64,000 nt of DNA, from positions 23,684,001-23,748,000 of the forward strand of contig OX597833.1 of the NCBI GenBank assembly GCA_951406725.2, in the 5' to 3' direction. Below, piece after piece: positions 53,201 to 56,200 of the stretch (position 1 is the first letter of the stretch; each line of letters opens with the position of its first letter). Position numbers: made by a program. The DNA comes from Octopus vulgaris. Its lineage: Eukaryota.

Positions 53201-56200
53201 TCTTAGAAGCTAATTCCTGAATGTACCAAAAACTATTTTTGTGAATCTGTGCATCTTTTATACCGTCAAATATGGTATGTTTTTCTAAAACATGCTTGGA
53301 GTCTTTTATACTTATTAGAGTAATTTTGTTAAAACAATATAGGACAGGCGTGGTTGTGTTAACAAGCTTGTTTTACAACTGTGTAGTTTGGGGTTCTGTC
53401 CCACTTCAAGTGCTGAAGTTGACACAATCAACTTACCTACTCTGCCTGAACTTGACAGGCCTTGTGTCAAAAATTGAAACCATCATTATTATTGTTAGTC
53501 ATTGACTATAAGGTGGCAAGCTGGCAGAATCGTTAGCATGCCGGGCAAAATGCTTAGCGATATTTCGTCTGCTGCTACGTTCTGAGTTCAAATTCTGCCA
53601 AGGTCAACTTTGCCTTTTATTCTTTCAGGGGTCGATGAAATAAGTACCAGTTACACACTGGGGTCAATATAATTGACTAGCCCCCTTCCCCCAAAATTTT
53701 CAAGGCCTTGCACCTAGTGTAAAAATAGTTATTGTAGTCATTGAGTGATAGGGCTTTTCCTTGCTCCTTAATTCTTCCCAATTTGATTTTCTGTGTTCCC
53801 TCGCATTAAATACATTAACACTTGCATTTAATTATGAAATTGTTTATTTGTTGTTTTTCCAGAGACTTCCAGCATTTTAACACAGTGTTACCATGAACGT
53901 GAAAAAAGTTTATCCAGCTTCATATCGGAACCCGAAATGTTCTCGTTGTAAAAATCATGGCTCTGATGCCAAGATGAAGGGCCACAAAGGTTTCTGCCCC
54001 TACATCTCATGTGATTGCATAAAATGCATCTTGGTAGAGGAACGGCGCCGAATCAACAGACAACAGAATCTGCTCCGAAGATATCCTGACATCAACGTCA
54101 AGGATATTTTCAAAGGTTGCATAAGATGCGAAAAATTCTGCCAACAGGTGACTGATTATTCTAACTGCGTCACTGCAGGTGAGATTACATTTATTTATTT
54201 ATTACATAGAGTAACGCCTCAATATACGTGTTAACTTGTTCCTGGAGACTGCTTATAAATTGAAAACTCGTAAAGCAGAGCAGTAATTAACCATAGTAGT
54301 CATGTAATTCGTTCCCAGAAAAATATTTTGACCTGTAAAGTTTATAGTACTTGGGGATCTTTTCGGTTTGAACGGCAGTTTTTAACATAATTTCTAGGTA
54401 ACTAAGAAATTTGAAACTTTGTATACTGGTAGAATGTGTTTATAAAACATCTTTTTCTCTTGGCTTTATTGAGAAAATTCTATAGTTTGTATGATATTTG
54501 TTGTTATTTTTCTTCAATTTCTGCTATTTCAACCAATCACCTACATGTATTGAGGTGAAAAACATTCTGTGCCGTATGAATATGTCCCTCATTTAAGAAA
54601 CAGATTGGGTTTATTTACATTTCTGAAGAAAAAAAGATACCCTTCCCCCTAACCCTGACCCGGATTGACATGCAATAGATCGATACTAGGGTCATAATTA
54701 TGGGTGACAATTTCATATGACACCGCTAGGAAAAACACAGCCGTTCAAACCGAAAATATCCGTACTTAGAAATAAATAGTAATAAATCAACAGTAGAATG
54801 TAAAGAATATTCTATGTAAAGTAAAAATAACGTCAAGGTCCTTTATAATAAAAGATACTAATATTATAATGGTTTTCTGAATCACTTTCACTCACACTAG
54901 ACTCGTGCACACCATCACTTGTATATGTGGTTGCCGATTCACAAGCACTCATAGACAGACTGTGGATTTCTTTTTGAAAACAAGTTTAGGGTTATTTGCT
55001 TAGAAGAAGCTTTCTTTCGCTCTCTAATAAATCTCTCGGTAACATACCGAAACATTTGTTGTGCTTCAAAATAAAACTCATAAACTTGGGGTTTTGTAAA
55101 ACGGGTCCTTGTAATATGAGGTTATTACTGTATATGCCAGGTATGGCTGTGTGGTTAAGAAGCCGGATTTGAAACCACAGGATTTTGGGTTCACTTCCAC
55201 CTTGCCCCACAGTGTCTTTTACTAGAATCCTGTGCCTTGTGAGTGAATTTGGTAAACAAGGTGTACATGCATGCATATGTATGTATATATCACTTGATTG
55301 ACCAGGCTATCAGATGTTGTTACATATCGCTGGTCACAATACACTTTCTGTATTGTTTTAGCCTTCAAATGACACAACCAACATTCCCCACAGATCAAAA
55401 GGGGGTCTGGAGCAACGTGAAATGAAGAGTTTTGCTCAAGAACACAAGGCATTGCCCAGTCAGGGAATCAAACCTTCAATCAAGTGATTGTGAGTCTAAC
55501 AGCCAAACCACTAGGCCACGTATATATGTACATTTGCATACATGTACACATATATCTGTGTATGTGTGTGTATATATATTGTATATGTGTGTACGTATAT
55601 GTATATATGTGTATATATGTTAATGTATATGTGTATATAAATGTATGTATATATGTCTATATATGTGTGTATATACATGTGTATATCTGTATATGTGTAT
55701 ATATATATGTATGTGTATATGCATATATATGCGTATATATATGTGTATATATGTATGTGTGTATATATGTATATGTGTGTGTATATATGTATATATATGT
55801 ATGTATATATGTGTGTATATATATATATGTATGTGTGTGTATATATATGTATGTATATGTGTATATGTATGCGCACACACACACACACACACACACATTA
55901 TGAAAGAGCTACTGATAATTTCAAGCTTGGAAATACATGGCAACTTATACAAATCTTCCAATTTAATGTATCTTAAAGCATGAAATTATTCTTGGCTCTT
56001 TTGTAATTACGTATATTAAATGATATTTATCTCACAGGGTGGGGTACTTTTATTGTTGACCCTATAAAGGAACTGTAAACTGTGTGTGTATATGAAGGGG
56101 TTCTGAAAAGTTTCTGGTTTCGGGTGAAAGAAAATTCAGGAGGATCAGTTAATTACAATTTTATTCAACATATTCTCTTCACAGATTCAGACTCTTATTT

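What the first reader, a model, noticed from the sequence alone, without database searches (positions are those of the whole stretch)
53863..54234. Divergent DM-domain (Dmrt) gene with a rewired recognition helix
Seen: the DM zinc module is intact, with plausible splice sites and a good start context. The C-terminal DNA-recognition helix reads ERRRINRQQNLLRR. Known: the canonical ERQRVMAAQVALRR is nearly invariant in Dmrt2/3/4/5 orthologues, and fast-evolving or duplicated DM genes have repeatedly been recruited as sex determiners (dmy, DM-W, iDMY). Inference: this may be a lineage-specific, possibly sex-related Dmrt paralogue with altered DNA specificity.
Basis: partly seen in the sequence, partly recalled or inferred. 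Interest (0 to 1): 0.8.

Follow-up and report, generated by a model that had tools for sequence, protein, structure and literature searches.

The report
Octopus Dmrt1-like gene, DM-domain exon
This is the first coding exon of an already annotated octopus "Dmrt1-like" gene, whose DNA-binding domain really is unusually divergent, but which looks like the octopus copy of a fast-evolving mollusc gene group and not a newly arisen sex-determining duplicate.

Summary
Window 53863-54178 (+) is one exon: AG acceptor, ATG at 53893, G|GTGAG donor. It encodes 96 residues with a full DM domain (Pfam E 3.7e-19) and all eight zinc ligands. Its recognition helix differs from the family consensus at 7 of 14 positions.

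The gene is already annotated. [quoted passage not shown] No paralogue and no relative outside Octopus was found by whole-protein search.

In DM-domain trees the octopus pair sits on a very long branch. It groups, with moderate support, with a chiton "Dmrt1-like" protein and some unnamed proteins, not with Dmrt2/3/4/5. Only the DM domain is recognised. These features match the published mollusc-specific, fast-evolving, male-biased Dmrt-1L group, which is reported in Octopus.

"Altered DNA specificity" is untested. Both base-contacting arginines are kept, and published SELEX work found the same core motif for heavily substituted DM helices.

The rest of the gene lies outside the window. Expression, dN/dS and chromosomal position could not be checked.

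The parts
51148..51281 (+). Upstream exon of the public O. vulgaris model, most likely 5' untranslated. It is preceded by AG at 51146-51147 and followed by G|GTAATT.
   Evidence: tblastn of P0009 residues 5-48 matches here exactly. The sequence was read.
53861..53862 (+). Splice acceptor AG after the pyrimidine-rich tract tttatttgttgtttttcc.
   Evidence: P0009 joins its upstream exon to 53863.
53863..54178 (+). DM-domain exon: 5' UTR 53863-53892, coding sequence from 53893. The last base, 54178, is the first base of a split Asp codon.
53878..53880 (+). In-frame TAA upstream of the start codon. It makes ATG 53893 the first possible start in this frame.
53926..54066 (+). DM domain as matched by Pfam PF00751 (residues 12-58).
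   Evidence: E 3.7e-19, 68.8 bits, profile positions 1-47 of 47.
53938..54027 (+). Zinc module, residues 16-45, with the eight ligands C16 C19 H22 H31 C35 C40 C42 C45.
   Evidence: These eight columns are invariant by construction in the 199 non-octopus domains, which were extracted with a pattern that fixes them. The independent support is alignment A2 of 50 whole proteins, where the same eight are invariant.
54028..54081 (+). Recognition helix, residues 46-63 (ILVEERRRINRQQNLLRR). It differs from the consensus at 7 of 14 positions.
   Evidence: for the counts. The AlphaFold2 model has a helix at 43-63, with block pLDDT of 88-94.
54085..54177 (+). Cys-rich tail, residues 65-95 (C76-x2-C79-x3-C83-x8-C92). 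It is identical between O. sinensis and O. bimaculoides. It matches no known family.
   Evidence: 31 of 31 identical; statistics; no Pfam match even at E <= 10.
54179..54180 (+). Splice donor GT, in the context G|GTGAG. The next coding exon is not in the window, so the intron is longer than 9.8 kb.
   Evidence: tblastn finds no match to P0002 residues 99-295 in the window; all other hits have E >= 1.3.

Best explanation
This is the first coding exon of the octopus orthologue of the mollusc Dmrt1-like (Dmrt-1L) gene, and the window matches Octopus vulgaris best. The product is a DM-domain transcription factor of about 295 residues.

By analogy with solved DM domains, the intertwined CCHC/HCCC zinc module should lie in the DNA minor groove and the following helix in the major groove. 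The S/T-rich remainder of the protein has no recognised domain.

The DM domain evolves fast in this lineage, but the zinc ligands and the two base-contacting arginines are kept. The protein most likely still binds a Dsx/DMRT-type site. The helix substitutions more likely affect how protomers pack on DNA, or binding affinity.

Its likely role, inferred from published work, is male gonad differentiation or spermatogenesis.

Shown here: exon anatomy, DM membership, orthology within Octopus, and divergence. Inferred: Dmrt-1L membership, DNA binding, and testis function.
For: DM domain: Pfam E 3.7e-19; PDB best matches are DMRT1 and Dsx.

Orthology: the exon is 99% identical to the NCBI O. sinensis 'Dmrt1-like' protein of 295 aa and 87% to the O. 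bimaculoides protein of 311 aa. The upstream exon and this exon match the O. vulgaris model exactly. A whole-protein search gave 3 passing proteins out of 2397 candidates, all from Octopus and one per species.

Domain content: only the DM domain is recognised in the full-length O. sinensis, O. bimaculoides and chiton proteins. There is no DMA, Dmrt1 or Dsx domain. This is how DMRT1L is described in print.

Trees of the 54-column DM domain: the octopus pair falls in a 10-row clade with the chiton Liolophura 'Dmrt1-like' protein and unnamed proteins (bootstrap 88, SH-aLRT 86). After I removed three long rows the matching 9-row clade had SH-aLRT 94. All named Dmrt3, DmrtA1/A2, Dmrt4/5 and dmd-5 rows lie elsewhere. 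The group shares the pattern L-V-E-E-R-x-R-x-x-R-[EDQ]-Q.

Intactness: the open frame, zinc ligands and splice sites are intact in three species.

Literature: Dmrt-1L is described as mollusc-specific, highly divergent and present in Octopus (passages). An O. sinensis DM-domain gene 'Dmrt1' is testis-biased, 136 against 1.56 FPKM (passages and Table 4).

Helix: R51 and R63, which I map to DMRT1 R111 and R123, are conserved in all three octopus sequences.
Against: I could not retrieve any bivalve or gastropod Dmrt-1L sequence, nor the octopus Dmrt2/3/4-5 paralogues. Clade membership therefore rests on one named chiton protein and on unnamed sequences.

The tree has only 54 columns, and the octopus stem is 2.3-2.9 substitutions per site. 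Long-branch attraction was visible: P0104 nested inside the octopus pair. In the larger 185-row tree nothing beyond the octopus pair was resolved. The 7-row group was named after I had seen the sequences, and an AU p of 0.36 only fails to reject it.

No cephalopod outside Octopus was found.

The DM domain (45 of 54 identical between O. sinensis and O. bimaculoides) is no better conserved than the rest of the protein (210 of 238; Fisher p = 0.36). That pattern would also fit relaxed constraint.

Mouse DMRT6, which differs at 6 of 14 helix positions, selected no binding site in vitro. Loss of ordinary DNA binding is therefore possible.

The identity of the published testis-biased gene EVM0011468 with this gene is unverified. 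No primers for it are listed, and supplements are closed.
Confidence: 0.72

Rival explanations
1. It is a lineage-specific octopus paralogue with a recognition helix re-tuned to a new DNA site, recruited as a sex determiner in the manner of dmy, DM-W or iDMY.
For: Whole-protein search finds the gene only in Octopus. The helix differs at 7 of 14 positions, and three of its residues are rare at their positions: R56 in 10, N59 in 9 and L60 in 2 of 241 domains. The helix still changes between octopus species: N55S, N59I, R62Q, Y64H. There is a possible testis bias.
Against: No parent paralogue with high identity was found. The best non-octopus identity is 33 of 54, and the tree links the gene to a chiton Dmrt1-like protein, so the lineage is old. 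The gene is present in O. bimaculoides, O. sinensis and O. vulgaris as an ordinary annotated gene. A preprint that searched the O. bimaculoides Z chromosome proteins by BLASTP with a scallop DMRT1L reported hits for FOXL2 and ZNK226l only (passage). The base-contacting arginines are kept, and heavily substituted Dsx helices still select ACAyTGT.
Confidence: 0.1
2. The DM domain is under relaxed constraint and no longer works as a sequence-specific DNA binder. The gene survives for another function carried by the conserved tail and C-terminal region, or it acts by heterodimerising with other DM proteins.
For: The DM domain is no better conserved than the rest of the protein (45 of 54 against 210 of 238). 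A rough omega of about 0.6 for the domain follows if the published genome-wide autosomal dS of 0.123 applies. This is an inference, not a measurement. The residues just after the domain are 31 of 31 identical. DMRT6, with 6 of 14 helix changes, selected no site, and DMRTs can heterodimerise on DNA.
Against: All eight zinc ligands, K29, K32, R51, Q58 and R63 are kept in every octopus sequence. The AlphaFold2 model gives a confident zinc module and helix, with block pLDDT of 85-94 over residues 11-60. The conserved run of 39 residues is not exceptional on its own: 0.19 such runs are expected by chance in this alignment.
Confidence: 0.13
3. It is a pseudogene or a fortuitous open frame.
For: None, beyond the fast evolution of the domain.
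Against: Pfam E is 3.7e-19. The frame, start, splice sites and ligands are intact. Full-length orthologues of 295 and 311 residues have an intact frame in two other species. The public O. vulgaris model that lacks the domain is explained by a modelling error.
Confidence: 0.03

Closest known systems
Mollusc Dmrt-1L / DMRT1L (named in Patinopecten yessoensis; CgDsx/Cg-DMl of oysters; reported in bivalves, gastropods and Octopus)
   Same: It is a mollusc gene in which only a DM domain is recognised (against the description). [quoted passage not shown] NCBI names it 'Dmrt1-like'. Testis bias is likely. It groups with a chiton Dmrt1-like protein.
   Different: No bivalve or gastropod member could be placed in my tree. 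The octopus stem is extremely long. The octopus protein carries a conserved Cys-rich tail that I did not see in the chiton protein. It has one DM domain, whereas mytilid and Pomacea members are reported with two.
Human DMRT1 DM domain (PDB 4yj0) and Drosophila Dsx (1lpv)
   Same: It has the same zinc-ligand pattern and a C-terminal helix. R51 and R63 correspond to R111 and R123 by my mapping.
   Different: The helix differs at 7 of 14 positions from ERQRVMAAQVALRR. There is no Dmrt1 C-terminal domain and no Dsx dimerisation domain. Published analyses say Dmrt-1L is not orthologous to Dmrt1 or dsx.
Bilaterian Dmrt2, Dmrt3, Dmrt4/5 (DmrtA1/A2, dmd-5)
   Same: They share the DM domain.
   Different: Every named Dmrt3, DmrtA1/A2, Dmrt4/5 and dmd-5 row carries the exact consensus helix, and they cluster apart from this gene. 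The DMA domain found in several of them is absent here.
Sex-linked DM duplicates (dmy, DM-W, iDMY)
   Same: It is a fast-evolving DM gene with a plausible male role.
   Different: Those genes are recent duplicates of a recognisable autosomal parent and lie on a sex chromosome. No parent copy was found here, and published work found no DMRT1L hit on the octopus Z chromosome.

Membership tests
DM domain (Pfam PF00751) | Score above the curated Pfam cut-off over the whole profile | tested here: met
   68.8 bits against a cut-off of 27, E 3.7e-19, profile positions 1-47 of 47.
DM domain (Pfam PF00751) | Intertwined CCHC and HCCC zinc ligands with spacing C-x2-C-x2-H-x8-H-x3-C-x4-C-x-C-x2-C | tested here: met
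   C16 C19 H22 H31 C35 C40 C42 C45. The same eight are invariant in alignment A2 of 50 proteins.
DM domain (Pfam PF00751) | C-terminal recognition helix with the two base-contacting arginines | tested here: met
   The model has a helix at 43-63. R51 and R63 are conserved in the three octopus sequences. The mapping to DMRT1 R111 and R123 is my inference.
DM domain (Pfam PF00751) | Sequence-specific DNA binding | not testable with these tools
   Needs SELEX or EMSA.
Mollusc Dmrt-1L | Falls in the mollusc-only Dmrt-1L clade, apart from Dmrt2, 3 and 4/5 | tested here: inconclusive
   It groups with the chiton Liolophura 'Dmrt1-like' protein and unnamed proteins (88/86; SH-aLRT 94) and apart from named Dmrt3/A1/A2/4-5. 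No bivalve or gastropod Dmrt-1L was retrieved. The alignment has only 54 columns and the branch is very long. AU p = 0.36.
Mollusc Dmrt-1L | DM domain(s) only; no DMA, Dmrt1 or Dsx C-terminal domain | tested here: met
   Pfam finds only DM above cut-off in P0002 and P0003. This was tested on the public full-length orthologues, because the later exons are outside the window.
Mollusc Dmrt-1L | High amino-acid divergence | tested here: met
   O. sinensis against O. bimaculoides: 81% identity overall and 45 of 54 in the DM domain, at a published divergence of 13-34 million years.
Mollusc Dmrt-1L | Male-biased gonad expression | not testable with these tools
   The published O. sinensis 'Dmrt1' EVM0011468 is testis-biased, but its identity with this gene is unverified.
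Canonical Dmrt2/3/4/5 | Consensus helix ERQRVMAAQVALRR | tested here: not met
   7 of 14 positions differ.
Canonical Dmrt3/4/5 | DMA domain (PF03474) | tested here: not met
   Absent from P0002 and P0003.
Sex-linked DM duplicate (dmy / DM-W / iDMY type) | A closely similar parent paralogue in the same genome | tested here: not met
   Only one protein per octopus species was found. There is no second copy of the exon in the window. The searches depend on shared words, so their sensitivity is limited.
Sex-linked DM duplicate (dmy / DM-W / iDMY type) | Location on a sex chromosome | not testable with these tools
   The window's chromosome is unknown. A preprint reports no DMRT1L hit among O. bimaculoides Z proteins.

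The most novel reading that the evidence does not exclude
Octopus Dmrt-1L keeps the zinc module and the base-reading arginines. Its substitutions concentrate on the helix face that, in human DMRT1, packs protomers together on DNA. It has also gained an invariant C-x2-C-x3-C-x8-C extension directly after the helix. Together these could give a DM factor with a new oligomeric or zinc-stabilised mode of DNA binding. Such a factor could be the autosomal male-differentiation switch that reads Z-chromosome dosage in the newly described cephalopod ZZ/Z0 system.
Probability: 0.1. Interest if true: 0.65.

Novelty: already known. Interest (0 to 1): 0.3.

Why it matters
Cephalopod sex chromosomes were described only recently, and the genes that carry out male or female development in cephalopods are unknown. 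A testis-biased, fast-evolving DM gene is an obvious candidate effector, so its correct gene model matters.

The present public O. vulgaris model appears to lack the DM domain. Anyone screening that annotation for DM genes would therefore miss this gene.

Beyond that, the finding adds no new kind of gene. It is the octopus representative of a mollusc gene group whose rapid evolution and male bias are already in print.

Tried and rejected
1. Finding the later exons. tblastn of the O. sinensis and O. bimaculoides proteins against the window matched only residues 1-98. The rest of the gene lies beyond 64000.

2. Word-based searches for relatives. Searches gave only octopus proteins. The profile search listed the best 120 of 3855 hits. 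Only one further mollusc, a chiton, was among them, so bivalve and gastropod Dmrt-1L sequences stayed out of reach.

3. The 185-domain tree. Nothing around the octopus pair was resolved.

4. Naming the nearest hits. They are chelicerate, nematode, fish or unnamed proteins. Many rank high only because they carry two or three DM domains.

5. The idea that the Cys-rich tail is a decayed second DM domain, as in two-domain Dmrt-1L or MAB-3. Pfam sees a single DM stretch in the full protein and nothing in the tail even at E <= 10. The chiton protein shows no such motif. I dropped the idea as unsupported.

6. The idea that the tail is exceptionally conserved. Fisher p is 0.02 against the rest of the protein, but 0.19 such identical runs are expected by chance. 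I rate it as only suggestive.

7. Foldseek of the AlphaFold2 model against the PDB. No match reached E <= 0.001 (5 matches at E <= 10, none of them DM). This is uninformative for so small a zinc module.

8. The ESM Atlas look-up returned only generic DM clusters.

9. tRNA and Rfam scans of the window found nothing.

10. The DMRT1-DNA structure paper (Murphy 2015) is not held. Contact positions were taken second-hand from a preprint.

11. No primers for the published O. sinensis Dmrt1 gene are listed, so I could not tie it to this exon.
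Full report
WHAT IS THERE

Window 53863-54178 on the + strand is a single exon. A pyrimidine-rich tract ends in AG at 53861-53862. An in-frame TAA lies at 53878-53880. The ATG at 53893 has A at -3. The frame stays open to 54178 and is followed by G|GTGAG. The finding's end coordinate, 54234, is only where the unspliced frame would stop.

The 96-residue translation (P0001) matches the Pfam DM domain over its whole length: 68.8 bits against a cut-off of 27, E 3.7e-19. Its best solved relatives are human DMRT1 (4yj0) and Drosophila Doublesex (1lpv). 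The other 9 of 11 listed PDB matches are noise at E >= 0.6. All eight zinc ligands are present.

An AlphaFold2 model built on a 50-row alignment gives a confident zinc module and a helix at residues 43-63. Block pLDDT is 85-94 over residues 11-60, falling to 52-57 in the tail. The mean is 74.2.

WHOSE GENE IT IS

[quoted passage not shown] It is 87% identical to an O. bimaculoides protein (P0003, 311 aa) that NCBI names "putative protein TPRXL" and UniRef names "DM domain-containing protein". The one difference from O. sinensis is S39 in place of L39.

A third record is the O. vulgaris "Dmrt1-like" model (P0009, 162 aa). It maps onto the window exactly, with an upstream exon at 51148-51281 spliced to 53863. 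The window is therefore O. vulgaris or something very close to it.

That model then reads 53863-53907 in another frame. It removes 53908-54037 as a 130-nt GT..AG "intron" and re-enters the DM frame at the helix. As a result it has no Pfam DM domain. Because the O. sinensis and O. bimaculoides proteins both start at the ATG of 53893, I take the O. vulgaris model to be an annotation error. Only RNA data can settle this.

Residues 99-295 of the orthologue find no match in the window. The next exon is therefore more than 9.8 kb downstream, outside the window. Only the window's exon was searched as my own sequence, and the full-length comparisons used the public proteins as returned.

HOW DIVERGENT IT IS

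An exhaustive HMMER search of 1.84 billion representatives gave 2307 hits at E <= 1e-3. Only one reached E <= 1e-30, and that was the octopus orthologue. The next-ranked hits score higher only because they carry two or three DM domains. They are spiders, mites and nematodes.

Over the 54-residue domain the best non-octopus identity is 33 of 54. From 241 unique non-octopus DM domains the helix consensus is ERQRVMAAQVALRR. Of these, 52 match it exactly. The window differs at 7 of 14 positions and O. bimaculoides at 8.

However, 95 of the 241 domains differ from the consensus as much as the window does, or more. Many of these appear to be the first domains of two-domain proteins. That set is biased towards relatives of the query. 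R56, N59 and L60 are rare at their positions: 10, 9 and 2 of 241.

But this degree of helix divergence is not unique within the superfamily.

WHERE IT BELONGS

A whole-protein search passed 3 of 2397 candidates, all from Octopus and one per species. A profile search listed the best 120 of 3855 hits. The only other mollusc among them was the chiton Liolophura sinensis "Dmrt1-like isoform X2" (P0195). It is 30 of 50 identical to the octopus protein within the DM domain and unrelated outside it.

A tree of 185 domains resolved nothing beyond the octopus pair. A careful tree of 63 rows that included the named proteins placed the octopus pair in a 10-row clade with the chiton protein, a near-identical unnamed protein and five other unnamed proteins. 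Support was 88/86, and 92/79 for the inner 7 rows. The octopus stem was 2.31 substitutions per site. A long unnamed row (P0104) nested inside the pair, which is a sign of long-branch attraction.

After I dropped three long rows, the corresponding 9-row clade had SH-aLRT 94. The AU test did not reject the 7-row group that I had named after seeing the sequences (p = 0.36). Named Dmrt3, DmrtA1/A2, Dmrt4/5 and dmd-5 rows all carry the consensus helix and lie elsewhere.

Full-length octopus and chiton proteins have no recognised domain other than DM.

This agrees with published descriptions, of which I read passages only:
- Dmrt-1L is a mollusc-specific group with DM domains only. [quoted passage not shown] Its divergence is in the top 5% of bivalve genes. 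It is present "in gastropods and Octopus" (PMC12530298; PMC10541798).

I could not place any bivalve or gastropod member in my own tree. Membership is therefore likely but not demonstrated.

EVOLUTION WITHIN OCTOPUS

The comparison is O. sinensis against O. bimaculoides.

| Region | Identical / aligned |
|---|---|
| N-terminus | 9 / 11 |
| Zinc module | 29 / 34 |
| Helix | 16 / 20 |
| Residues 66-96 | 31 / 31 |
| Remainder | 170 / 196, plus 22 gap columns |

The helix differences are N55S, N59I, R62Q and Y64H.

The DM domain (45 of 54) is no better conserved than the rest of the protein (210 of 238; Fisher p = 0.36). This is unusual for a DM gene.

A published autosomal mean dS of 0.123 and a divergence of 13-34 million years are available (PMC10925132, passages). 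Using them, a crude conversion gives omega of about 0.6 for the domain and about 0.5 for the whole protein. This is an inference from a genome-wide mean, not from this gene's own synonymous sites.

The identical stretch after the helix contains C76-x2-C79-x3-C83-x8-C92. It is more conserved than the rest of the protein (p = 0.02). A run of that length is nevertheless expected 0.19 times by chance. It matches no Pfam family.

DOES THE HELIX IMPLY NEW DNA SPECIFICITY?

This was not tested here, and precedent argues against it.

- A preprint (10.1101/2024.09.25.614005, passages) states that three helix positions, 8, 16 and 20, contact bases, and that positions 8 and 20 are conserved arginines. 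I aligned this numbering with DMRT1 R111 and R123, using the numbering in PMC6855215 and the alignment. On that mapping they correspond to R51, N59 (I59 in O. bimaculoides) and R63. Both arginines are kept.
- The same preprint reports that Dsx DM domains with more than half of the helix substituted still select ACAyTGT. In those proteins the substitutions cluster on the face that forms a hydrophobic zipper between protomers.
- The octopus changes M55N, A56R, A57Q and A60L replace small or hydrophobic residues with larger ones. I therefore infer an effect on protomer packing or affinity, not on base readout.
- Murphy et al. 2007 (PMC1931443, passages) found similar sites for six mouse DMRTs despite helix differences. 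DMRT6, with 6 of 14 helix changes, selected no site. Weak or lost binding therefore remains a live alternative.

FUNCTION

One paper on O. sinensis gonads (PMC11202624, passages and Table 4) lists a DM-domain gene "Dmrt1" (EVM0011468) at FPKM 136.43 in immature testis against 1.56 in ovary. This gene is the only "Dmrt1-like" octopus protein that my searches returned. The link is unproven, because no primers for that gene are listed.

A preprint on the octopus Z chromosome searched the Z-linked proteins with a scallop DMRT1L and reported hits only for FOXL2 and ZNK226l. This argues against sex linkage. I could not locate the window on a chromosome.

SURROUNDINGS

The window is repeat-rich and shows no other gene.
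- There are four LINE fragments with reverse-transcriptase matches and one with an endonuclease match.
- A segment of about 1 kb is present three times at spacings of roughly 5.7-5.8 kb.
- There are long AT and AC microsatellites and a 98-bp satellite.
- Several copies of a SINE-like unit lie in the intron just upstream of the DM exon.
- No tRNA or Rfam family was found.
- There is one N run at 4868-4967, which I left untouched.

VERDICT

It is not a new lineage-specific paralogue, and altered specificity is not shown. The gene is already annotated and already discussed in print as Dmrt1 or Dmrt-1L of Octopus.

The modest new points are these:
- the apparent defect in the O. vulgaris model;
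- a DM domain that is no more conserved than the rest of the protein between octopus species;
- a Cys-rich tail that is invariant in the one species pair compared (O. sinensis and O. bimaculoides).

Noticed in passing
window 53863-54040 (public model P0009): The public O. vulgaris 'Dmrt1-like' model (162 aa) reads the 5' UTR in another frame. It removes 53908-54037 as a 130-nt GT..AG intron, which deletes the zinc module, so Pfam finds no DM domain in it. This is probably an annotation error. A DM-gene census of that annotation would miss the gene.
   Followed up: partly
window 54085-54177: The Cys-rich stretch C-x2-C-x3-C-x8-C directly after the DM helix is 31 of 31 identical between O. sinensis and O. 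bimaculoides. It has no Pfam match and low model confidence. It could be an extra zinc-binding element, or the conservation could be chance.
   Followed up: partly
window 51582-52495 and 53500-53700: Six copies of a SINE-like unit of about 150-200 bp (77-86% identical to one another) lie in the intron upstream of the DM exon. The last ends about 160 bp before the acceptor. Neither ARAGORN nor Rfam recognises it.
   Followed up: partly
window 42153-44195: A 98-bp satellite of about 20 copies, 95% matching, on a strongly C-rich strand (GC skew -0.65 in the 2-kb block that contains it).
   Followed up: no
window 5000-6000, 10675-11654, 16464-17456: A segment of about 1 kb is present three times at 94-98% identity, about 5.7-5.8 kb apart, next to reverse-transcriptase fragments (5967-7010 and 17191-18000, minus strand). 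This is a tandemly repeated unit containing LINE sequence.
   Followed up: partly
window 29904-33270 (-) and 37282-38943 (+): Further LINE remains: a reverse-transcriptase match in the frame 29904-30899 and an endonuclease match in the frame 32167-33270, both on the minus strand. A 553-aa open frame on the plus strand combines reverse transcriptase with a weak PHD-finger match.
   Followed up: no
window 15042-16436, 18328-20095, 40274-41043: Very long AT and AC dinucleotide microsatellites of 0.8-1.8 kb.
   Followed up: no
window 4868-4967: A run of 100 N (assembly gap or mask). I left it as it is.
   Followed up: no
proteins P0046, P0056, P0064 (unnamed records): Three unnamed short DM proteins carry the helix CILVEERRRVMREQIALRR. 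They group with the chiton and octopus Dmrt1-like proteins, so they may be further members of the same group from unsampled animals.
   Followed up: partly
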